Made by a program: the position numbers and the translations under genes. Under the pieces are notes generated by a model that saw nothing but the letters and a program-made list of their open reading frames with translations, was not told where the DNA came from and searched no databases. Source: a virus. Taken from it: a stretch of DNA of 21,724 nt. The stretch lies in the UHGV virus genome UHGV-0132790, one strand, 5' to 3'. Shown piece by piece: positions 1,170 through 15,871 of the stretch. Within the stretch, counting starts at the first letter, position 1, and each line of letters opens with the position of its first letter.

Positions 1170-3238
1170 GATTTATCACCTCCGAAATTTTCAAGCCTGT
1201 TGGCAATCATGATGGCGATATCAGGGATTGCTGGCGCTGTGGCTATACATGCGGGGTTGGCGCACAAACCATAGACGGCGGCAATCACGAGCTGTCTTTT
1301 CCAGTCGAGAGTTACTGGCTCAGAATTGGCGTCATCGCCGGACGTATCACTGCCTGGCTCGTTCTGAACAACGGTTTCGCCCTCCTGAGCGGTATCAACA
1401 GAGTTTTCCTGAATGATCTTCTCCTCAGTTTGTGCTGAGTCTTCTCCATCAGCGGCGTCATTTTCTCCAAAAGTTTCTGTGTAAGTGCTATCGCCCATTA
1501 CCGCACTACAGTCAGGGCAGTTACCCCCGCCAGTCTGACCACAGACGCGGCAGTTTTTTTCCAGCTCCGGTTGCGCTACTGGGGCTGGCTGTTGCTCTTC
1601 TGGCCCGTTTTGTTGCGTATCCGGGCTGTTTTGTCCCGCTTCTGGGGCAATTTGTTCCACTTTGGACTGATTCTGGTCCTCAGTGTCGCGAGCCTGGATC
1701 CCCTTAATCCACTTCGGGTCGGTTGGGGCGCTGATGCCTTCAACGAACTCCCCACGAGAGGCAGCCAGCAATTTGTCTGCATCGACAGGATTTTTGGGCG
1801 AAATGTTTTTCCTGGCTTCATGGAGTTCTGCTCTCAGTTCCTGGTATTTCGTTTCTACAGATGAGACATTTTCCAGTGATTGCGTGTCCGCATTATGTTT
1901 AACTGGAATTTCTTCCACTGATTCAGGCGCTGCCTGTTCATTAGACATTGCGTCCGATGTTTGCTGCTTTTCTTCATCGTCATGTATCTCTTCTGCTGTT
2001 CCGCGCTGCGGCATTGGGGCTGATGAGCGACCGCAGGCGATTTCCACGATTTCCGGATCCGGGTTAGAGTGATCGGTTTCGGTCAACACTTTGTTGAGAT
2101 ATTCAGTCACGCGCGCCGGGATAGCCTCAATGCCGATTGGTGCTTCTTTCACTGAAGCCACCACAATGGCGCGGGAATAATCCAGCCCACCGGGCATGGC
2201 GATGAATTTGTCACGGAAAACAGAAAAGGGCGGCTTATTCTCTGACACGATTTCTTCAACGCGTTTTGCGTGTGCTGGGTGCAGGTTATAAATATCCACA
2301 TCCATTGAACGGGCCAGAACGCCAGTGGCAATGTCTCGCGCCAGTGATGCCTGATTGTGGGTAAAGCCTTCGCCACGATCGGTAAGATTTCCGCCGCCAG
2401 CGTTAGCACCGGAAGGCGTACGAGTGATGCCTGTAACATAATTTCCTTTCTGCCATTCTTTTGCCAGCAATCCCTGATCCACATAGTCTGTTTTCATCCA
2501 GGTGGAGATGAACTTGTCGAATTCAGCCGGGCTGATGCGATGATTTGCAGAGTGGGGGAATGCTTTCCCTACAGATTCAGCCAGGCGACTAAGGTGATAG
2601 TTCGTCAGTTTATCCAGTTCATGATGCGCGGCGCGCACAGCAGTAAGCAGGCTCTGAAGGTAACTGTCCTCTGTGTCCATCTCCATACGGATCACGTTAT
2701 TGCGTTGTTCTGGTGTGGCATGATGCCGGTATTTTCCATCTTCATCTTTGCTGAATAAGAAGAGGTGAAGGAAGCGATGAGTAAGGCTCAGAGTGGCGAC
2801 GGGAATTTCACACTCAGAACAGTCATCGTCGCTGTCCGGGGATTCGCTTTTCTCCACATCATCCGGAATAGTTCCGTCCAGGTTATCGTTGTCATCGCCA
2901 GCAGTTGTGGCATCTTCACCGTTGATGTTGTCATCGAAGGGGATAGCCATCATGGTGATGCCATCGTTACCGCCTTTTTCATAGCGGTTGCAGAATTCAG
3001 TATCAAACACGCCTTCCGGTGGAAGGTCATTCACGACGGGGAAATTTACGCGAACGGGTTTTTTGAAATCATCCTCGTCGTAGCCTGCATCGTCCATGGC
3101 TGCAATGCAGCGGGAAACTGCGACAGAAAGTTTTCTGGCCTCGGTCCAGAAAAAACCGCCTTTGATGCCAAGGCGTTTTCTGACTTTATCGTTTTTTGCT
3201 TCGCAGTGTAGTGCAAAAGTCTGTTTATCAGCGCTCAT
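1166..3238 (-). CDS. Large (690 aa) acidic hypothetical protein with Cys-rich cluster; function unknown, candidate host-takeover or anti-defence factor
   Basis: Long uninterrupted ORF with ATG at 3238 and AGAGGT upstream. The stop overlaps the gam start. Contains D/E-rich tracts ([25 protein letters not shown]) and a [16 protein letters not shown] motif. No family recognised from memory. Confidence 0.6.
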
Positions 3239-3345
3239 TGTATTTAAACCTCTGGCTGGATTAGAATTAGCGGCCCTTTGTCTGATTTCTCCGAATACGG
3301 TGACGCAGGGAGAAATCCGGTAGCCTGCGCTGCCGGATTTTTATT

Positions 3346-3732
3346 TCAGTGGAAGGTTGCCTGGTTTGCTGTTTTGTGAGTTGTTTTTCCCTTTTCGTGC
3401 TGGCATTCAGGGCAGTCGCACTCAGAATTTTCTCTTGCAAACTCAAGAGCCTGTGCAAGTGTATGGATTTGTTGTGCTCCAATGTTGCTTCTGACGACTT
3501 CACATGCAGCATGAATATATGGGCTTGGTGTTTTGCCATTTAACCCACATAAAACAAAACGACTGTCCTTATATTCGTTATTTCCAACTTCTGTAAGCAC
3601 TGAAAAAGAAAATACAAAGTCGATTTTGTATTCTTTGCATATTTTACTGATGCGTTCTGCAATTTCTTCGAGTTCATTTATTGCATCAGGACTGGTTTCG
3701 GAAAATATTTCATTTTGCGCAAGTTCTTTCAT
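3346..3732 (-). CDS. Hypothetical protein (128 aa) with C-terminal CDCPEC motif
   Basis: ORF in the early-left operon orientation, AT-rich, weak SD. No recognisable family. Confidence 0.4.
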   Translation of the reverse strand: MKELAQNEIFSETSPDAINELEEIAERISKICKEYKIDFVFSFSVLTEVGNNEYKDSRFVLCGLNGKTPSPYIHAACEVVRSNIGAQQIHTLAQALEFARENSECDCPECQHEKGKTTHKTANQATFH

Positions 3733-5062: not shown

Positions 5063-5776
5063 TCAGGCGGTCAGCTCTTTAAGCTTCTGAACTGCTTTAT
5101 TCATTTCATCCATACAGTCGATGAATTCGTCCAGTTTAAGCTGCATTTTTCCGGCGGCCTGAAGAATTTCAAGTTTTAAGGGCGCAAGTTTTTTGTTGAA
5201 TGCATCATCTTCCTGGCGTTTTTTCTCCGCAATTTCGGCGGCTTTCAGCAATTCTTCAGCCTGTTTTCTGAGTATTTCTGGTGAAGGTGAAACTGCTTTG
5301 AGGTTATTCATTTCAGGTTCCTGTTGTTGCAGAATTAATTTGTTGCATTCTCTGCGTGAGCGTTTCATTGCAGATTCGCACTTCTTGCAATAAATGGCTC
5401 TCCCGTCACGCTTGCTGGCATCTGAATAAAAATCATTGACTGATTTTGTCTGCCCGCATCTGGTACATAATTTTGATTGAAGGTCCTTAATGATTGTGAC
5501 GTTTCCTTCCCGTTTGGGATATCCATATTTTTTGTGGCGGAAAAAGGTTACTCCGTTACCAGAACCTTCTTTTCTGACCTTAAATACAATGATGCTTTCC
5601 CGTTTATCGATAAAATCTATGAGCTGGTTTCTCTCCTTTCCTGACAGTTCGGCAAATGTCTTAACTTTTTTAGTAACTTCCGTAAGGCGAACTCCATCAG
5701 GCATTTTTTCAACGAAGTTTTTAATCTCTGCAAGCGGACGCCATAACTTTTGCGGCAAAACTGAAGGCGTGGTCAT
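5063..5776 (-). CDS. Hypothetical protein (about 237 aa) with zinc-ribbon (CTRCG...CKKCE) and a K/E-rich probable coiled-coil C-terminus
   Basis: ORF immediately downstream of N. ATG at 5776 lies just after the N stop (TGATTGATG), suggesting coupled translation. Confidence 0.6.
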   Translation of the reverse strand: MTTPSVLPQKLWRPLAEIKNFVEKMPDGVRLTEVTKKVKTFAELSGKERNQLIDFIDKRESIIVFKVRKEGSGNGVTFFRHKKYGYPKREGNVTIIKDLQSKLCTRCGQTKSVNDFYSDASKRDGRAIYCKKCESAMKRSRRECNKLILQQQEPEMNNLKAVSPSPEILRKQAEELLKAAEIAEKKRQEDDAFNKKLAPLKLEILQAAGKMQLKLDEFIDCMDEMNKAVQKLKELTA

Positions 5777-5779
5777 CAA

Positions 5780-6163
5780 TCACCTCGCCGTCAGTTGTTT
5801 TGATTTCCGGTAGCCTGCCGCGTAAATGGCTACGTTTGGAAGACATACACCAGTTTCTGGTTGCTTATGTCCAAACTCATTCGCGTACACAATGGCTGCT
5901 CGCTCCAGATTGCGTCTGTATTCTTTCTGTTGCCAGATCACGTCCTGTGCCATGAACTTAATTGGCTTAGCGTCTTCTATGCGCTCAGGCGTTTCGTGAG
6001 TACCTTTAGCCTGAATCTGCGCTCTGCTTAGAGTAGGGCGGTGTAATACTTCTGAACTTATTGCTTCTTCGCGGGCCAGTACGCAGTTAGCTAATGCCTT
6101 TGCCTTTAAACGCTCACGACGACGAGAACGTGAATTGCCTTTGAACTGAGTTCTGCGTGTCAT
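5780..6163 (-). CDS. N: N-type transcription antiterminator (non-lambda allele; resembles the N of Stx/H-19B-type phages)
   Basis: 127-aa product MTRRTQFKGNSRSRRRERLKAKALAN... has an N-terminal arginine-rich motif like lambda N (QTRRRERRAEKQ). It is the first gene downstream of pL. AGGAGG lies 6 nt upstream of the ATG at 6163. Confidence 0.8.
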   Translation of the reverse strand: MTRRTQFKGNSRSRRRERLKAKALANCVLAREEAISSEVLHRPTLSRAQIQAKGTHETPERIEDAKPIKFMAQDVIWQQKEYRRNLERAAIVYANEFGHKQPETGVCLPNVAIYAAGYRKSKQLTAR

Positions 6164-6330
6164 ATGGAACCTCCTGATGAACTTTGGTGGTGTGGTAGGT
6201 GGGAGACCCATTTCGACCTGTTTCGGCCTACTTCAATTCGGCAATAGTCCCGCAGGCCTCGCCGCTTTACGTGCGACATATTCCCGTCCATGAACCCTTC
6301 ACCACACCCCAAAGTTCACTTTGGTTATTG

Positions 6331-6349: not shown

Positions 6350-6412
6350 ATTCATATTTGAATCGTTGTATATTCACCGCCCTGGTGAGTAGTGCGTCCT
6401 GCTGATGTGTTT

Positions 6413-6475
6413 AGTATCACCGCCAGTGGTATTTATGTCAACACCGCCAGAGATAATTTATCACCGCAGATGGTT
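6413..6475 (-). promoter_or_regulatory. pL promoter with operators oL1, oL2, oL3 (lambda immunity type)
   Basis: TATCACCGCCAGTGGTA (6415-6431), CAACACCGCCAGAGATA (6439-6455) and TATCACCGCAGATGGTT (6459-6475) match the lambda oL operators. On the minus strand the -35 TTGACA (6441..6436) and -10 GATACT (6418..6413) are 17 bp apart. Confidence 0.85.
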
Positions 6476-6632
6476 ATCTGTATGTTTTTTATATGGATTT
6501 ATTTTTTGCAGGGTTGAGTGGCTTGGGAGGTGATCGAGAGATCTGAATTGCGATGTTTAGTGAGTTGTATCTATTTATTTTTCAATAAATACATTTGGTT
6601 ATGTGTCTTTAGGTGGGGGGGGTGAGGCAAAG

Positions 6633-6659
6633 AAAACCCGGCGCTGAGGCCGGGTTTTT
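6633..6659. terminator. Bidirectional intrinsic terminator ending the cI-cargo operon (timm-like)
   Basis: AAAACCCGGC-GCTGAG-GCCGGGTTTTT: a 6-bp GC stem flanked by an A-run and a T-run, directly after the stop of the 6660-7436 gene. Confidence 0.65.
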
Positions 6660-7436
6660 CTAGGCTACCAGAGACTCAATCCAAGAGTCTCTGGTATGGA
6701 ATGGCAACACTCGTGCGGTATCATTAAATAGTAGTGATAGTTGCTGTAGCTCAGGTGTTAACCCATCGCTGTCAACTATTACAAATCTATTGTTTATGTC
6801 AGGAACGACCTGACTTAAGTCAACAATCTTCCCAACTGTTGAGTGGGCAGTATTCCATCCCTTACTGCTGGCAAGGCTTACCGTAAACCCGCGTTTTGGT
6901 GGTATTAGTCGAGACTCATTCCTTAGCGTTAACGGAACAGTAATGTTATGCCCACTAATACCTTTCACTTTTTCCTTTAAGGCTAGTCGCTTCCCAAGCC
7001 CTGCTGATTTTAAGTAACTGATTACACATTTTTCGAACTTATCGTCTTTGACCTCAGCATACCAATCAGCAGTTTGGGCGGATGCAAGAATCCCACCACG
7101 AATAACATTTGCAGTTACCTGTCCAACGGACGACTCATCTGCCCACGCAGATATCTCTCCAGAGTCATTTAATGAAATTCCTTGCGAAGCGAGTGATGAC
7201 CTGATCAGATCAATTTTCTTTTTAGTCAGGTGGATGCCGCGTGATTCAATATTCATCAATGTATCGCAGTAGTCTGTAACCCTATACTGACCACTCATCT
7301 CTTGAACGAATACACTTATCTGCTCACAATCATCGTAGTATGTGAATGGACTAATAACGCGCAGCAACGTGTCGCTCATTGGGTGGCATTCAAACCCGAG
7401 CTTAGATATGACTGTTGAACACGTTACATTTCCCAT
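6660..7436 (-). CDS. Hypothetical protein B (258 aa) of the two-gene cassette in the rexAB slot
   Basis: ORF between pL/oL and cI, same strand as cI. Its ATG at 7436 overlaps the end of the upstream gene by 13 nt. AT-rich relative to cI. No similarity to RexB or any family I recognise. Confidence 0.6.
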   Translation of the reverse strand: MGNVTCSTVISKLGFECHPMSDTLLRVISPFTYYDDCEQISVFVQEMSGQYRVTDYCDTLMNIESRGIHLTKKKIDLIRSSLASQGISLNDSGEISAWADESSVGQVTANVIRGGILASAQTADWYAEVKDDKFEKCVISYLKSAGLGKRLALKEKVKGISGHNITVPLTLRNESRLIPPKRGFTVSLASSKGWNTAHSTVGKIVDLSQVVPDINNRFVIVDSDGLTPELQQLSLLFNDTARVLPFHTRDSWIESLVA

Positions 7437-7966
7437 GATAACTGACCTGATTTATCTTGATTAGGTAAAGGTGGGCTGCCTTCATATATGATATTAAGCG
7501 CCTCGCAAAAATAATTCCAGTAGCCAAAAAAATCATCTGGCTTGATGTTCGTTTCAAGCTTAAGTGCAATTTCTTCCCCAGCTGATTCGAAGTACATGTG
7601 ATAGTGAGGACCTCGAGCCACCTCAACAAAATCTGGATGGTTCACTATAGATTTATTACGGTGTGGCTTGTTATCCGCAGGGTACGGATCAAGCGCGTAA
7701 ATGCGCCTGTCATGAAGAAACATCACAAATGAAATCTTCACTATATCCACCCCTTCAACGATAGGAGGACGCCAGTGAAGCATAAATCTTATGCCTGTGA
7801 TTGGGTTGCCAATTTCATCAAAAGCTTTGAGATCCAATTTAAACCAGATTGGGGTTCGTCCCTCACTTCCGGTCCATGTAACTCCGCTAAAAGTTACTTT
7901 TTTCAAGCGAGTAATAGCTTGGTCAACCTCTTTCTGGGTAGGCTTAAAGTCGCCTTTTTTAGCCAC
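7424..7966 (-). CDS. Hypothetical protein A (180 aa) of the two-gene cassette in the rexAB slot
   Basis: ORF starting 46 nt downstream of the cI stop, on the same strand. Only a GTG start is available at 7966, with GGTGA about 9 nt upstream. No similarity to RexA recognised. Confidence 0.55.
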   Translation of the reverse strand: MAKKGDFKPTQKEVDQAITRLKKVTFSGVTWTGSEGRTPIWFKLDLKAFDEIGNPITGIRFMLHWRPPIVEGVDIVKISFVMFLHDRRIYALDPYPADNKPHRNKSIVNHPDFVEVARGPHYHMYFESAGEEIALKLETNIKPDDFFGYWNYFCEALNIIYEGSPPLPNQDKSGQLSWEM

Positions 7967-8012
7967 TGATTCGTATCACCATGAAAGTTATTGTTAATAC
8001 CTGTGCTTCTTG

Positions 8013-8729
<717 letters not shown>

Positions 8730-8736
8730 TTAAATC

Positions 8737-8802
8737 TATCACCGCAAGGGATAAATATCTAACACCGTGCGTGTTGACTATTATACCTCTAGCGGTGATA
8801 AT
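8737..8802. promoter_or_regulatory. oR3-oR2-oR1 operators with divergent pRM and pR promoters
   Basis: TATCACCGCAAGGGATA (8737-8753), TAACACCGTGCGTGTTG (8760-8776) and TACCTCTAGCGGTGATA (8784-8800). pR -35 TTGACT (8774-8779) and -10 GATAAT (8797-8802). The cro SD AAGGAGG follows. Confidence 0.9.
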
Positions 8803-8826
8803 GATTGCCTGTACTAAGGAGGTTGT

Positions 8827-9462: not shown

Positions 9463-9526
9463 TATTCAGGCAGGGCATGGAGCAATACACGGGAATAATT
9501 CTGCCACATCTGGAAGAATTTCGCCA

Positions 9527-9685
9527 GCAACAACACCAACCGCAGCAGCCTGAAGCCGATTGGGTTAACCCGGAGATACCGGGACCGTCTGTGAAGATGT
9601 GCAGTCACACCAATGTGCAGTCACACCAACCGCAGCAGCCTGAAGCCGATTGGGTTAACCCGGGAGATACCGGGACCGTCTGCGG
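9527..9685. repeat. Two direct copies of a roughly 60-bp element plus a tandem 16-bp duplication; candidate iterons or origin of replication
   Basis: CAACCGCAGCAGCCTGAAGCCGATTGGGTTAACCCGG(G)AGATACCGGGACCGTCTG occurs at about 9529-9591 and 9620-9682, with TGTGCAGTCACACCAA twice in tandem at about 9596-9627. Each copy contains the 10-bp palindrome GGGTTAACCC. A third, interrupted copy lies inside the initiator gene at 10381-10474. Confidence 0.5.
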
Positions 9686-9715: not shown

Positions 9716-10804
9716 ATGCGTAATTACGCAACAATTTCACCTCAGTTCTGGTTAGGCGAAACAGGGAGAAAACTAAGGAAGTCTGGTCCGGAATGTATGG
9801 TAGTGGCGTTGTATATGATGACCTCGCCTCATTCCAATATGCTGGGCCTTTATTACCTGCCTGTTTTGTACATTGCTCACGAAACCGGACTTGATCCTGA
9901 AGGGGCTTCTAAGGGGCTTCAAATGGCTTGCGAGGCTGGTTTTTGCAGCTATGACCATGATTCTGAGGTTGTATGGGTGCATGAAATGGCAGCATGGCAG
10001 GTTGGTGAATCGCTGAAACCTGGCGATAACCGTTGTGCTGGGGTAAGAAATGAATATTCCGTGTTGCTGGAAAATCCTTTTTTATCATCCTTTTATGATA
10101 GATATAAGGATGATTTCCACCTGGATGTCAGACGTGAATCATGTCGGAAAATTGAAGCCCCTTCAGAGCCTCTTTCAAGCCAAGAACAGGAACAGGAACA
10201 GGAACAAGAACAGGAAAGGGATAAAACCCTTCTGGTCCATGGCGAAAAAATCGCCACGGACCCGCAGGGGGATTTTTGTCCTGTTCTGACTGAACGTCCA
10301 GGACCAGCTGGCACGACACCGGAAGCAGATTCCGGGCGTTGTGTGCAGCAGGTGCTGATCGTCGAACCGGAGCAACAACGCCAACCGCAGCAGCCTGAAG
10401 CCGATTCCGCGATGAGCGGGAAGCCGATTGGGTTAACCCGGGCGATGCCGGGACCGTCTGCGGGACGAGTTGATTATCCTGACGTGTTCGAACGGGTCTG
10501 GCGTGAATATCCGCATCGGGCAGGGTCAAACCCGAAGAAATCCGCGTTCAATGCCTGGAGGGCCAGATTACGCGAAGGGGTGTCACCGGATGTCGTGCTG
10601 GATGGCGTGAGGCGTTACGCAAGATACCTGGAGGCTACCGGGAAAGCGGGAACTGAATTTGTTCAGCAGGCATCGACGTTTTTTGGCCCGAACAGGAATT
10701 TCGAAAATCCGTGGTCGCTGCCGAAGGCTGGCGCAGTCAGCCTGCGTTGCGTGAATCACATTTCTGAACCGGACACCGAAATTCCGCCGGGTTTCAGGGG
10801 GTAA
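9716..10804 (+). CDS. Phage replication initiation protein (O-equivalent, paired with a DnaC-type loader)
   Basis: 362-aa ORF directly upstream of the DnaC-like gene, occupying the lambda O position, with an internal copy of the upstream repeat. Contains an EQEQEQEQEQE tract. Family assignment is by position and general resemblance only. Confidence 0.7.
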   Translation: MRNYATISPQFWLGETGRKLRKSGPECMVVALYMMTSPHSNMLGLYYLPVLYIAHETGLDPEGASKGLQMACEAGFCSYDHDSEVVWVHEMAAWQVGESLKPGDNRCAGVRNEYSVLLENPFLSSFYDRYKDDFHLDVRRESCRKIEAPSEPLSSQEQEQEQEQEQERDKTLLVHGEKIATDPQGDFCPVLTERPGPAGTTPEADSGRCVQQVLIVEPEQQRQPQQPEADSAMSGKPIGLTRAMPGPSAGRVDYPDVFERVWREYPHRAGSNPKKSAFNAWRARLREGVSPDVVLDGVRRYARYLEATGKAGTEFVQQASTFFGPNRNFENPWSLPKAGAVSLRCVNHISEPDTEIPPGFRG

Positions 10805-13792: not shown

Positions 13793-14098
13793 TTAAGCAT
13801 GAGGCGAAATTTCTGCCGGGCGGTATTTTGTTGAGAGATGAGATACGTCAACTTCTCTTTCCGCTTTTTCGAGGCTCCATGCCGTCTGGAGACGAATCCA
13901 TGAAGACGGAGTTCCACCCAGGACAGCAGCGAGACGAACAGCCATTTCAGGAGATATTGTCGCATTACCTGAAACCAGTCGCTGAACAGTGGAAGGCGCG
14001 ACATCAAGCGCTCTTGCCAGTTCCCTGATTCCAATATTCTGATCTTCCAGAATATCAGCAATAATTTCTCCGGGATGAGGGGGGTTAAACATCGCCAT
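13793..14098 (-). CDS. higA: HigA-type antitoxin (XRE-family HTH)
   Basis: 101-aa MAMFNPPHPGEIIADILEDQNIGIRELARALDVAPSTVQRLVSGNATISPEMAVRLAAVLGGTPSSWIRLQTAW... is typical of HigA/VapI antidote proteins. Lies downstream of the toxin with a 1-nt TAATG overlap. Confidence 0.8.
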   Translation of the reverse strand: MAMFNPPHPGEIIADILEDQNIGIRELARALDVAPSTVQRLVSGNATISPEMAVRLAAVLGGTPSSWIRLQTAWSLEKAEREVDVSHLSTKYRPAEISPHA

Positions 14099-14376
14099 TA
14101 GTGGTAATCCTCGTAGTTAAGAATATAAGCATCGCCGTTCCGAAACTCGAATGTGATTCTCCAGTTACCGGAGACGGTGACAGACCATGTATCGGATCTG
14201 TCCCCCTGCAACTGGTGCAGCCTGTACCCGGCAAGGTTAATATCATCAATGATTTCAGCTTGATCTATTACCTGAAGGCGCGTTCTCAGGCGTTTAACGT
14301 GATTGGGATTTATGCCTGATGCATTTCCTGTTTCAAAGAAACGTTGAAGTCCTTTGTGTTTCCAGCTTTTTATCAT
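14098..14376 (-). CDS. higB: HigB-type toxin (RelE/ParE superfamily)
   Basis: 92-aa MIKSWKHKGLQRFFETGNASGINPNHVKRLRTRLQVIDQAEIIDDINLAGYRLHQLQGDRSDTWSVTVSGNWRITFEFRNGDAYILNYEDYH. ATG at 14376 with AGGAAA upstream. Toxin-first gene order is characteristic of higBA. Confidence 0.8.
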   Translation of the reverse strand: MIKSWKHKGLQRFFETGNASGINPNHVKRLRTRLQVIDQAEIIDDINLAGYRLHQLQGDRSDTWSVTVSGNWRITFEFRNGDAYILNYEDYH

Positions 14377-14713
14377 GCTTGTTTCCTGTTGCGTTACGCG
14401 AATCATTATAGCGACTGTTGTGTAATGCGCAACGGTTGTTTGACAAAAATAGGTATCCGGGATTATATTCACCGCACGCCAGCAAAATCTGGCGTCGGGA
14501 TTGGCGTCCTGGATAGAGACCGCGACAGATACACGCCGCGAGCGTGTTTTTTATTGTCGTATGCACGCGCACATCTGAATTATGGTGGGCTGTGTGGGGG
14601 CGGAGAGATCCGCGCCGGTCGGTTTCCCGGTTACGCCAACCCTGCACAGTTCACCACCAGACGATTGGCGTCGTCGGTGGTGAGTTATTAAGAAACCACT
14701 CGAGGGCGTCATT

Positions 14714-15406
14714 ATGACAACTCAAATCTCTGTTGAAACTCTCTCCCCGATCACCCATAACCAGATTCCTGTTATTACCACCGAACTTTTGGCGCAGTTG
14801 TACGGTGCTGAAGTTAAGAACATTCAAAATAACTACGCCAGAAATGCTGAGCGCTTTATTGAAGGAAAGCATTTTTTCAAAGTGGCTGGCGATGCCCTGA
14901 AAAATTTGCGGGTAGCTTTAAACTACTCACAAAATTTGCAACCATCTTTAAGAGGGTTACAAATTTCCCCGAAAGCCCGCTCCCTCATCCTCTGGACAGA
15001 ACGAGGCGCAGCCCGTCACGCCAAAATGCTAGAAACCGATCAGGCGTGGGAAGTGTTCGAAAAACTGGAAGACTGCTATTTCAGCCAGGGAAAAACAGCA
15101 CCAACCGAACAGCAGCCGCAGATTCAGCCACAATTCACAGCCGAGGAAATCATCCTCCTTTGCTACATGCAACTCTGGATGGAAAAAGCCCAGGACCTTA
15201 GCAAGCAGCTGTACCCCATAATGAAAGAGCTGAACTCCTCATACACGAACAAGCTGTATGACATTGCGTTTGAGACTATCTACATGGTGACGAAGAACAG
15301 AGACGCGCTACTAAGGGAGGTAACACGTCTCGACATGTCAAGTTCCGTTATCCAGCGGGCCATGCCAATGCTGAAAAGCCTGCGGGCAAGACAATTTGAA
15401 TTCTGA
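14714..15406 (+). CDS. ORF6N-domain phage protein (Roi or antirepressor-like DNA-binding protein)
   Basis: N-terminal VITTELLAQLYGAEVKNIQNNYARNAERFIEGKHFFKV resembles the ORF6N domain consensus. 230 aa. Confidence 0.6.
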   Translation: MTTQISVETLSPITHNQIPVITTELLAQLYGAEVKNIQNNYARNAERFIEGKHFFKVAGDALKNLRVALNYSQNLQPSLRGLQISPKARSLILWTERGAARHAKMLETDQAWEVFEKLEDCYFSQGKTAPTEQQPQIQPQFTAEEIILLCYMQLWMEKAQDLSKQLYPIMKELNSSYTNKLYDIAFETIYMVTKNRDALLREVTRLDMSSSVIQRAMPMLKSLRARQFEF

Positions 15407-15410
15407 AACT

Positions 15411-15435
15411 AAAGGAGCTTCGGCTCCTTTTTTGT
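15411..15435 (+). terminator. Intrinsic terminator
   Basis: AGGAGC-TTCG-GCTCCT hairpin with a UUCG tetraloop, followed by TTTTTTG. Confidence 0.6.
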
Positions 15436-15460
15436 TGGGAAAATCCAGTGAGAGGGAATA

Positions 15461-15871
15461 ATGAACCAGACTATCTTCCTCCGAAGTAAGCAGCAGCAAC
15501 AATTCGCCATTAACGCCATCCTTGCAACAACTCTCGATAAAGACAAACCCGTTACGATCCGTATCACCGATTACAAGCGTAATCTCGCTCAAAATGCAAA
15601 ATTTCACGCGATGGTCGCTGATATATCCCGCCAGGTTAAGTGGTGCGGCAGGTGGCTAAAACCAGAACAGTGGAAAGTTTTGTTAATCAGCGGTCATGCC
15701 GTGGCGACAAAACAGGAAGCTGATGTTTTGCCAGGTCTTGAAGGTGAATACGTCAATATCCGCGAAAGCAGTGCGCAGATGAGCGTGAAGCGTATGGCAA
15801 GCCTGATTGAGTACACAACTTCCTGGGCTGTGGATCAGGGTGTCAGATTTACCGACAGGAGGTATGAATGA
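15461..15871 (+). CDS. ninB: NinB (Orf family recombination mediator)
   Basis: 136-aa protein with clear resemblance to lambda NinB (QQNAI...RNL.QN.K..A...D.SRQV.W.GRWL..E.WK). GGGAGGG SD. Confidence 0.85.

What the first reader, a model, noticed from the sequence alone, without database searches (positions are those of the whole stretch)
6633..8012. Two uncharacterised genes occupy the rexA/rexB slot, co-oriented with lambda-type cI and ending at a timm-like terminator
In lambda the genes immediately downstream of cI, transcribed with it from pRM in the lysogen, are rexA and rexB, the classic prophage exclusion system. Here cI is essentially lambda cI and oL/oR are lambda-type, but the slot holds two different overlapping ORFs (180 aa from a GTG at 7966; 258 aa from the ATG at 7436) that resemble neither RexA nor RexB nor any family I recognise. 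They are AT-richer than cI, have a 13-nt overlap suggesting coupled translation, and end at a strong bidirectional terminator (6633-6659) just before pL. Lysogen-expressed cargo at this position is the textbook place for a phage-exclusion or defence module, so this is the strongest candidate for an undescribed two-component system.
Basis: partly seen in the sequence, partly recalled or inferred. Interest (0 to 1): 0.85.

Follow-up and report, generated by a model that had tools for sequence, protein, structure and literature searches.

The report
Candidate defence pair replacing lambda rexAB
In a lambda-immunity prophage of E. coli (the one carried by O104:H4 outbreak strains), the classic rexA/rexB exclusion genes behind the repressor gene are replaced by a conserved, translationally coupled pair of uncharacterised proteins; two computational screens already flag the pair as a likely anti-phage system, but I found no experimental test of it.

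Summary
Two overlapping ORFs on the minus strand lie between a cI that is 99% identical to lambda cI and a timm-like terminator just upstream of pL. They are A (7424-7966, 180 aa, GTG start) and B (6660-7436, 258 aa). Homology to lambda breaks at the cI stop codon and at B's stop codon, so the pair replaces rexA-rexB precisely. Both genes are real: dN/dS is about 0.05-0.08. A always sits directly upstream of B, and the pair lies behind many different prophage repressors in gamma-, beta- and epsilon-proteobacterial phages.

The proteins are not family-less. B has an N-terminal DUF1828 domain (secretion-chaperone-like fold) and a C-terminal DUF1829-like domain with a PD-(D/E)xK nuclease fold. 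A is a weak DUF6978 relative with an invariant Arg/Asp/Asn/His-x-His cluster. The pair is a divergent branch of PADLOC's untested candidate PDC-M24. DefensePredictor (Science 2026) lists the sister E. coli pair as "predicted novel defense gene", but did not clone it.

The best reading is a cytoplasmic, lysogen-expressed two-protein anti-phage module with a nuclease-fold component. Its mechanism is unlike RexAB's membrane channel. No phenotype data exist. I rate it a new variant of a known kind, of moderate interest.

The parts
8013..8726 (-). cI repressor, lambda immunity type (HTH_3 + Peptidase_S24). First gene of the presumed pRM operon.
   Evidence: Pfam S24 E 6.8e-29 and HTH_3 E 2.6e-11. 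It is 99.2% identical to lambda cI over 237 aa.
7424..7966 (-). Gene A: a 180-aa cytoplasmic protein with a GTG start. It is DUF6978-like / PDC-M24A-like. Invariant residues are W31, R88, D93, N104, H121 and H123 (plus K22, H102 and G119), and it has a conserved C-terminal G-Q-x-x-L tail.
   Evidence: ORF. Pfam DUF6978 E 7e-5, below the gathering score. PADLOC PDC-M24A E 3.8e-4. phrog_2017 E 7e-74. Conservation. dN/dS 0.05-0.08. No TM segment. The AF2 model is poor at pLDDT 56.
6660..7436 (-). Gene B: a 258-aa cytoplasmic protein. The N-terminal domain (about 1-125) is DUF1828 with a secretion-chaperone-like fold. The C-terminal domain (about 130-258) is DUF1829-like with a PD-(D/E)xK restriction-endonuclease fold. 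Invariant residues are D36, D55, G93, I95, G159, S161, H163 and D206 (plus D222).
7424..7436 (-). 13-nt overlap ATGGGAAATGTAA: the start of B lies inside the last codons of A, suggesting translational coupling.
   Evidence: Sequence. Relatives keep a 4-nt or 1-nt overlap.
6633..6659 (-). timm-like intrinsic terminator directly after B's stop codon. It has an A-run/T-run-flanked GC hairpin, so it is bidirectional in shape.
   Evidence: Fold -22.5 kcal/mol, z -4.0. The surrounding stretch 6374-6661 is 89% identical to lambda 35550-35831.
6374..6480 (-). oL1-oL3 operators and the pL promoter (lambda type): the left boundary of the swapped segment.
   Evidence: pL TTGACA-17-GATACT at 6441-6413. 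Operator sequences are readable. Homology to lambda.
8727..8826 (.). oR1-oR3 with pR (+ strand) and pRM (- strand). pRM is the presumed promoter of the cI-A-B transcript in the lysogen.
   Evidence: pR at 8774-8802. Operator sequences. 96% DNA identity to lambda 37227-38255. Use of pRM is inferred by analogy with lambda cI-rexA-rexB.

Best explanation
A and B form a prophage-encoded two-protein anti-phage (superinfection-exclusion or abortive-infection) module. It is expressed in the lysogen as the distal part of the cI transcript from pRM, and from pRE during establishment, and it stops at the timm-like terminator.

B's start lies inside A's last codons, so the two proteins are made together and most likely act as a cytoplasmic complex. 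A's conserved C-terminal G-Q-x-x-L tail is a candidate docking peptide for B's chaperone-like DUF1828 domain.

The output is probably nucleic-acid cleavage. It could come from B's C-terminal PD-(D/E)xK-fold (DUF1829-like) domain, whose conserved residues (S161-G-H163, D206, D222) are non-canonical. It could also come from A's invariant Arg/Asp/His/Asn/His-x-His centre. The other protein would then act as sensor or inhibitor, and the trigger would be a cue from a heterologous infecting phage.

Shown here: gene anatomy, precise replacement of rexAB, obligate A-B pairing, conserved position behind repressors, purifying selection, B's domain folds, and absence of membrane segments.

Inferred: co-transcription from pRM, complex formation, nuclease activity, and the defence phenotype.
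For: 1. Slot. Homology to lambda breaks at the cI stop (8013) and at B's stop (6661), so rexB-rexA is replaced exactly. No terminator-like site was found on the minus strand between cI and A, and there is a strong terminator after B.

2. The cI-N interval is a known mosaic hotspot holding the abortive-infection systems rexAB and bstA, driven by the highly active repressor promoter (PMC8585504). [quoted passage not shown] Behind the same lambda-type cI I found rexAB, this pair, its 50%-identical variant, an unrelated 145+123-aa pair, and a hypothetical+NYN cassette.

3. Obligate pairing and mobility. An A homologue sits directly upstream of B in the same orientation in all 82 loci examined (one of them disrupted), behind S24 repressors ranging from 100% to about 31% identity to lambda cI, or undetectable. 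The same holds in 7/7 species genomes and in Pseudomonas, Burkholderia and Helicobacter phages. It also holds in metagenomic contigs where A is only 21-28% identical: in the 7 of 8 contigs that extend past A's end, a gene of about 220-255 aa follows, with a weak Pfam DUF1828 hit in five. A and B identities fall together across loci: 99/100, 88/91, 78/83, 65/74, 40/51.

4. Purifying selection: dN/dS 0.05-0.08 for A. For B, dN is 0.05 with dS saturated.

5. Predictors. All 12 B-family members hit PADLOC PDC-M24B (best E 1.9e-13) and some A members hit PDC-M24A. PDC-M24 is a guilt-by-embedding candidate. DefensePredictor gives the sister pair log-odds of 5.6/4.9 and 6.3/5.4 against a cutoff of 4. 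Its table pairs the 185-aa protein with WP_001074607.1, which is the accession of this window's protein A.

Against: No phenotype, expression or biochemical data exist for this pair or any relative that I could find. PDC-M24 is a candidate only. The sister pair is absent from DefensePredictor's list of 118 cloned units, and only 45% of the 94 high-scoring units they tested protected against phage.

B lacks the canonical D...(D/E)xK catalytic motif. No conserved acidic-x-Lys is seen in the third strand, and K181 is conserved only among close relatives. The nuclease fold may therefore be inactive or only DNA-binding, as proposed for the DUF1829 protein DS-6B of HipAD.

The A match to PDC-M24A/DUF6978 is weak and partial.

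I could not read Brenes & Laub 2025, whose phages PhiR57_1 and PhiR63_2 carry the variant pair.
Confidence: 0.55

Rival explanations
1. Same defence module, but with reversed roles. A, through its His-x-His/Asp/Arg centre, is the enzymatic toxin or effector. B is a catalytically dead nuclease-fold sensor or antitoxin that holds A in check through its chaperone-like DUF1828 domain and releases it on infection. This would be a toxin-antitoxin-like logic, as proposed for HipAD.
For: A's invariant residues are enzyme-like: R88, D93, H102, N104, H121 and H123 are kept down to 21% identity. B lacks the canonical PD-(D/E)xK motif. In the validated system DS-6/HipAD, the DUF1829-containing protein is predicted to bind the kinase toxin and DNA rather than to be the effector. 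B's N-domain resembles type III secretion chaperones, which hold partner polypeptides.
Against: A's fold is unknown and no catalytic family could be assigned. B keeps an invariant S-G-H...D...D set in its nuclease-fold domain, which would be unexpected for a purely structural remnant.
Confidence: 0.25
2. A toxin-antitoxin or addiction module whose main role is to stabilise the prophage (post-segregational killing or retention), with no direct anti-phage effect.
For: It is a compact overlapping two-gene operon on a mobile element. The same prophage carries hokD, Doc and RelE/ParE modules. A TacA/TacT module is inserted in the same slot in one relative.
Against: Integrated prophages gain little from plasmid-type addiction. 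The slot's characterised occupants (rexAB, bstA) are abortive-infection systems. Neither protein matched NCBIfam, and the Pfam and PADLOC searches returned only DUF and PDC-M24 models. Both proteins are large for a type II pair, and neither has a DNA-binding antitoxin domain.
Confidence: 0.12
3. A lysogen-expressed accessory function unrelated to phage conflict, for example a DNA-processing or repair nuclease, or a modulator of induction or host physiology.
For: The function is untested. Nuclease folds serve many roles. Other genes in this slot, such as bstA, were first linked to virulence phenotypes.
Against: The distribution is sporadic and accessory: 61 + 239 of 5426 E. coli genomes and 7 species representatives. 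The cassette swaps between immunity types. Two defence predictors flag it. The position behind repressors is strictly conserved across phyla of phages. All of this fits conflict cargo better.
Confidence: 0.1
4. The ORFs are chance reading frames or decayed remnants.
For: None, beyond the unusual GTG start of A.
Against: dN/dS is 0.05-0.08 with saturated synonymous divergence. Intact homologues extend down to 21% identity. PHROG families match at E 1e-74 and 1e-119. B has a confident two-domain model.
Confidence: 0.01

Closest known systems
Lambda RexA/RexB (cI-rexA-rexB-timm operon)
   Same: Identical genomic slot and orientation, with lambda homology on both flanks and the same cI, oL/oR and terminator region. 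It is a two-gene cassette of nearly the same length (1351 vs 1395 bp) and is presumably lysogen-expressed from pRM.
   Different: There is no sequence similarity (E > 1). RexB is a membrane protein, reported to be an ion channel, whereas A and B have no hydrophobic segment (maximum Kyte-Doolittle score 1.22 and 0.79). B carries a nuclease fold instead.
PADLOC PDC-M24 (phage defence candidate, Payne et al. 2024 bioRxiv 10.1101/2024.01.29.577857)
   Same: The two-gene order A>>B and similar protein sizes (HMMs of 146 and 255 positions). All 12 B-family members match PDC-M24B, and some A members match PDC-M24A.
   Different: The matches are weak for this window's proteins (E 4e-4 and 5e-7), and the A match covers only its C-terminal third. 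PDC-M24 was defined from cassettes embedded in known defence systems, not from prophage immunity regions. It is unvalidated.
DefensePredictor predicted pair WP_001062368.1 / WP_000968518.1 (Science 2026, PMC13092281, Tables S5/S10)
   Same: This is the 40%/51%-identical variant of A/B found in the same slot of phages PhiR57_1, ev207 and ev017 and in 239 E. coli genomes. The table pairs the 185-aa protein with WP_001074607.1, which is this window's protein A.
   Different: It is a prediction only (log-odds 4.9-6.3). It is not among the 118 cloned units and no mechanism is proposed.
BstA (prophage BTP1) and DS-34 (cI + downstream gene)
   Same: Defence cargo placed directly downstream of the prophage repressor and sharing its promoter.
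   Different: These are single proteins from unrelated families. BstA has a DNA-encoded self-immunity element (aba), and nothing comparable was looked for or seen here.
HipAD / DS-6B (DUF3037 + DUF1829)
   Same: It contains the DUF1829 (PDDEXK-clan) domain as the partner protein of a validated two-gene prophage defence system.
   Different: The partner is a HipA kinase rather than a DUF6978-like protein. The N-terminal domain is DUF3037 rather than DUF1828.
PD-(D/E)xK nucleases of defence systems (Can2/Card1, NucC, NgoMIV/Cfr10I-type restriction enzymes)
   Different: Sequence identity is only 5-15%. No CARF or cyclic-oligonucleotide-sensing domain was detected, no methyltransferase is present, and the canonical catalytic motif is not conserved.

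Membership tests
RexAB | Sequence homology to RexA and RexB | tested here: not met
   blastp of A and B against lambda RexA/RexB gives only chance matches (E 1.5-8).
RexAB | RexB-type multi-pass membrane protein | tested here: not met
   The maximum 19-residue Kyte-Doolittle hydropathy is 1.22 (A) and 0.79 (B), so there is no TM segment.
RexAB | Location downstream of cI, co-oriented, ending at timm before pL | tested here: met
   Lambda homology flanks the pair exactly at the cI stop and at the terminator.
PADLOC PDC-M24 (candidate system) | Protein matching the PDC-M24B models | tested here: met
   B matches at E 5.4e-7 over residues 5-169. 12 of 12 B-family members match, best E 1.9e-13.
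PADLOC PDC-M24 (candidate system) | Protein matching the PDC-M24A models | tested here: inconclusive
   A matches at E 3.8e-4, covering only residues 98-160 (model positions 78-135 of 146). Only a few of the 19 A-family members match (2, 2 and 1 per model), best E 4.1e-6.
PADLOC PDC-M24 (candidate system) | Adjacent co-oriented genes in the order A>>B | tested here: met
   (cassette FAM_00129>>FAM_00065).
Pfam DUF1828 | Score above the gathering threshold (22 bits) | tested here: met
   40.9 bits, E 2.5e-10, residues 30-112 of B.
Pfam DUF1829 / PD-(D/E)xK clan | Sequence match of the C-terminal domain to DUF1829 | tested here: inconclusive
   B itself gives no hit at E <= 1. Full-length homologues do: phi644-2 gp47 at E 8e-5 and the Helicobacter prophage protein at E 1.4e-6. 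HHblits gives 98.8% for the E. coli variant in DefensePredictor Table S5.
Pfam DUF1829 / PD-(D/E)xK clan | Restriction-endonuclease-like alpha/beta fold | tested here: met
Pfam DUF1829 / PD-(D/E)xK clan | Catalytic motif D ... (D/E)-x-K | tested here: not met
   Invariant residues over distant homologues are G159, S161, H163 and D206 (plus D222). There is no conserved acidic-x-Lys strand motif. The spatial arrangement could not be inspected.
Pfam DUF6978 | Score above the gathering threshold (29.6 bits) | tested here: not met
   23.6 bits, E 7e-5, C-terminal part only. A few close homologues carry a precomputed PF22398 hit.
Anti-phage defence system (functional definition) | Reduces plating or spread of at least one phage when expressed | not testable with these tools
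   No experimental report was found. The pair is not in DefensePredictor's tested set.
Type II toxin-antitoxin | One product toxic, neutralised by direct binding of the other | not testable with these tools
   Only the compact overlapping architecture is seen. The NCBIfam search returned nothing, and the Pfam and PADLOC searches returned only DUF and PDC-M24 models.

The most novel reading that the evidence does not exclude
The pair is the enterobacterial representative of a widespread, mechanistically new cytoplasmic abortive-infection system of temperate phages. In this reading, a secretion-chaperone-like DUF1828 domain recognises a phage protein or peptide. It then releases either a non-canonical (Ser-Gly-His/Asp/Asp) PD-(D/E)xK-fold nuclease or a previously unrecognised His-x-His enzyme (the DUF6978-like protein A). 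The system would be naturally interchangeable with rexAB behind lambda cI.
Probability: 0.3. Interest if true: 0.7.

Novelty: new variant of a known kind. Interest (0 to 1): 0.5.

Why it matters
If the pair protects against phage, it would give a function to three domains of unknown function (DUF1828, DUF1829 and DUF6978). It would also provide a first validated member for the PADLOC candidate PDC-M24.

It would be a clean natural experiment: the same lambda immunity region carries interchangeable exclusion cassettes, namely rexAB, this pair, its variant, and at least two other cargoes. Together the two variants of the pair are more common than rexAB itself in complete E. coli genomes (61 + 239 against 99 of 5426). 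They are present in strains of medical and biotechnological interest, including the O104:H4 outbreak lineage, Nissle 1917 and the type strain ATCC 11775. They could therefore affect phage-therapy host range.

The lambda genetic toolbox (pRM fusions, imm-lambda hybrids) makes the system directly testable.

Tried and rejected
- Sequence search of A and B against PDB chains, as single sequences and as a profile, gave only chance hits: TCP-1 delta, His-tags and a designed Kelch repeat.
- NCBIfam gave no hit for either protein.
- The exhaustive representative search with the A profile found only 22 clusters, all stand-alone proteins of about 160-185 aa or fragments (plus one weak repetitive hit). 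The third word-index search likewise found no informative names or domains.
- I considered cupin (HxHxxxE), HIT (HxHxH) and HNH readings of A's motif. The E at +4 and the third His are not conserved in distant members and no fold supports any of them, so I assign none.
- I tested the idea that B's three cysteines (C6, C17, C57) form a metal site. C57 is not conserved in distant homologues, so I dropped it.
- Megablast of the cassette against INPHARED phages found only the 60-nt terminator region. Protein-level search was needed to find phage relatives.
- The afdb50 fold library was unavailable.
- Literature searches for DUF1828, DUF6978, PDC-M24, the RefSeq accessions, PhiR57 and a lambdoid 'defense hotspot' returned nothing on this pair.
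- Brenes & Laub 2025 is not held.
Full report
**Observation**

The minus strand of the window carries four elements in order:
- cI at 8013-8726 (237 aa)
- ORF A at 7424-7966 (180 aa, GTG start)
- ORF B at 6660-7436 (258 aa, ATG start), overlapping A by 13 nt
- a GC-rich hairpin at 6633-6659, flanked by an A-run and a T-run and starting right after B's stop codon

The hairpin folds at -22.5 kcal/mol, and none of 200 shuffles fold as well. pL (TTGACA-17-GATACT) lies at 6441-6413, and the lambda oL and oR operator sequences can be read directly.

cI is 99.2% identical to lambda cI and Cro is 97% identical. At the DNA level, window 8013-9041 matches lambda 37227-38255 (96%) and window 6374-6661 matches lambda 35550-35831 (89%). 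Homology therefore stops exactly at the cI stop codon and at B's stop codon. The 1.35 kb in between replaces lambda's 1.40 kb rexB-rexA segment.

A and B show no similarity to RexA or RexB. The claimed AT-richness is real but small (GC 0.42-0.44 against 0.45 for cI) and equals that of lambda's own rex genes.

The window is the immunity region of a lambdoid prophage integrated next to ynfH/dmsB in E. coli O104:H4 and other strains. RefSeq calls the genes 'hypothetical protein' (WP_001074607.1) and 'DUF1828 domain-containing protein' (WP_000528776.1).

**Are they real genes?**

Yes. Orthologues at 88-91% amino-acid identity have saturated synonymous divergence. dN/dS is 0.05-0.08 for A. For B, dN is 0.05 with dS too saturated to compute. 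Both proteins belong to PHROG families (phrog_2017 at E 7e-74; phrog_1960 at E 2.8e-119).

**What are the proteins?**

- PD-(D/E)xK nucleases, presumably matching the C-terminal one: Can2 10.4, NgoMIV 9.4, BstEII 9.4, PspGI 9.2, Cfr10I 7.9, NucC 7.3.

The BFVD search returns a phage DUF1828 protein, endonuclease I-like proteins and PD-(D/E)XK proteins. More distant full-length homologues hit Pfam DUF1829 in their C-terminal half. DefensePredictor's HHblits table gives DUF1829 (clan PDDEXK) at 98.8% for the E. coli variant.

The canonical D...(D/E)xK motif is not conserved. Over homologues down to 20% identity, the invariant residues are D36, D55, G93 and I95 in the N-domain and G159, S161, H163 and D206 (plus D222) in the C-domain.

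*Protein A.* A is a small stand-alone protein. It gives a sub-threshold DUF6978 hit that covers only its C-terminal third. It has no solved relative and only a poor model. An exhaustive profile search of 1.84 billion representatives found just 22 clusters. All relatives are unfused and unnamed.

Its signature is an invariant W31, R88, D93, N104, H121-x-H123 (plus K22, H102, G119). It also has a C-terminal G-Q-x-x-L tail that persists even where A and B do not overlap. The tail is therefore constrained at the protein level.

Neither protein has a membrane segment.

**Comparative context**

An A homologue lies directly upstream of a B homologue in every context examined:
- all 80 IMG/VR loci plus the two reference loci, with one locus disrupted
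- 7 of 7 species-representative genomes, all Enterobacterales
- Pseudomonas phage phPA-G, where the A gene is unannotated
- Burkholderia phage phi644-2 (gp48/gp47)
- a Helicobacter prophage
- metagenomic contigs in which A is only 21-28% identical (in the 7 of 8 contigs that extend past A's end, a gene of about 220-255 aa follows, with a weak Pfam DUF1828 hit in five)

A and B identities fall in step across these loci.

The pair nearly always follows an S24 or HTH repressor, on the strand opposite to the cro/antirepressor/replication genes. The repressors differ widely: about 98-100%, 71%, 62%, 48%, 41% and 31-35% identity to lambda cI, or undetectable. Both the 100% type and the 51% type of the pair occur behind lambda cI.

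Counts among 5426 complete E. coli genomes:

| Element | Genomes |
|---|---|
| This pair | 61 |
| The variant pair (includes Nissle 1917 and ATCC 11775) | 239 |
| rexAB | 99 |
| Full-length lambda-type cI | 618 |

Behind the same cI, other strains carry an unrelated 145+123-aa pair or a hypothetical+NYN cassette. This matches the published description of the cI-N interval as a mosaic hotspot that holds the abortive-infection systems rexAB and bstA (PMC8585504).

**What is already known**

PADLOC-DB's only hits for the two proteins are PDC-M24A (E 3.8e-4) and PDC-M24B (E 5.4e-7). All 12 B-family members, but only a few of the 19 A-family members, match these models. PDC-M24 is a two-gene 'phage defence candidate' derived by guilt-by-embedding (153 occurrences). 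It is not one of the seven systems validated in that preprint.

DefensePredictor (PMC13092281) lists the variant pair as 'Predicted novel defense gene':
- WP_000968518.1 (log-odds 5.64) and WP_001062368.1 (4.90) in Table S5
- WP_000968517.1 (6.26) and WP_001062368.1 (5.42) in Table S10

The cutoff is 4. A column in those tables pairs the 185-aa protein with WP_001074607.1, the accession of this window's protein A.

The pair is absent from Table S6, which lists all 118 cloned units, and from Tables S7 and S8. Only 45% of the 94 tested high-scoring units protected against phage. DUF1829 was 'newly implicated in defense' there through a different protein, DS-6B of HipAD. That protein is proposed to bind the HipA-like kinase and DNA.

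I found no paper dealing with this pair itself. Brenes & Laub 2025, whose phages PhiR57_1 and PhiR63_2 carry the variant, is not held.

**Most likely mechanism**

The pair is most likely cargo of the repressor operon. It would be transcribed from pRM in the lysogen, translated in a coupled manner, and act as a soluble A-B complex that interferes with superinfecting phages.

The only recognisable effector-type fold is B's PD-(D/E)xK-like domain, so nucleic-acid cleavage is the most economical output. The chaperone-like DUF1828 domain and A's conserved tail are candidates for the sensing or regulatory interface.

B lacks the canonical catalytic motif and A has an enzyme-like invariant cluster. 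The reversed assignment, with A as effector and B as sensor or antitoxin, is therefore a serious alternative.

The anatomy, conservation, folds and context are shown. Co-transcription, complex formation, catalysis and the phenotype are inferred. I put the defence reading at about 0.55. The main rivals are an addiction module and a non-conflict accessory function.

**Verdict**

Two parts of the interpretation need correcting. The proteins do belong to recognisable, though uncharacterised, families. The family has also already been flagged computationally by two groups.

It is a new variant of a known kind: repressor-linked prophage defence cargo with a nuclease-fold component. It is experimentally untested, and the lambda toolbox makes it unusually easy to test. 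Interest 0.5.

Noticed in passing
window 5780-6211 (-): An intact N antiterminator gene (Pfam N_peptide E 2e-15, arginine-rich motif MTRRTQFKGNSRSRRRERLKAK). The RefSeq O104:H4 record annotates only a 69-nt pseudogene 'regulator' fragment here.
   Followed up: partly
window 5063-5779 (-): A 238-aa ORF with a TTG start abuts the N stop codon and has a Cys4 zinc-ribbon-like motif (CTRCG...CKKCE). It has no Pfam hit. It matches phrog_2539 (unknown function), with weaker matches of the zinc-ribbon part to endonuclease VII, HNH and Lar-like families. It could be another pL-operon moron.
   Followed up: partly
window 9526-9594, 9616-9685, 10371-10463: Three copies of a 70-90-nt direct repeat (89-97% and 63-92% identity for its two parts). 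Two lie just upstream of, and one inside, the 362-aa DnaD-like replication initiator gene (9716-10804). They look like iterons or an origin. A (CAGGAA)n tract at 10181-10222 encodes QEQEQE.
   Followed up: partly
L002 19259-20987 (window about 13860-15590): The nin region of the same prophage carries hokD, a Doc (death-on-curing) toxin gene with no annotated Phd partner, and a RelE/ParE toxin with an HTH antitoxin. That makes several toxin modules in one prophage.
   Followed up: no
L002 4807-8640 (window up to about 3240): The prophage encodes both a lambda Exo/Bet/Gam set and a 690-aa RecE-family exonuclease immediately adjacent to it.
   Followed up: no
L083 about 2986-3504 (Pseudomonas phage VB_PaD_phPA-G, PP083311): The A-like gene is not annotated in the GenBank record (hmmsearch E 2e-29 with the A profile; it overlaps the B start by 4 nt). 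An extra 216-aa gene lies between the CI-like repressor and the pair.
   Followed up: yes
L092 1409-2178: In a metagenomic relative, a TacA/TacT-type (acetyltransferase) toxin-antitoxin pair is inserted just upstream of the A-B pair. This shows stacking of conflict modules in the slot.
   Followed up: no
L104 2694-3489 (EPEC E2348/69) and L105 1317-3373 (strain FY10): Behind the same lambda-type cI, these strains carry other uncharacterised cargo: an overlapping 145+123-aa pair, and a hypothetical gene plus a NYN-domain gene separated by an IS5-family insertion. These are further untested candidates in the rex slot.
   Followed up: no
L046 2588-3893: One IMG/VR contig has the pair disrupted across the A/B junction. 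A residues 1-114 and B residues 38-258 are detectable, but about 300 nt between them are not alignable.
   Followed up: no
L102 (Actinomadura rugatobispora, 518-bp contig): A 57%-identical fragment of B sits on a tiny contig of an actinomycete assembly. Contamination is more likely than genuine presence.
   Followed up: no
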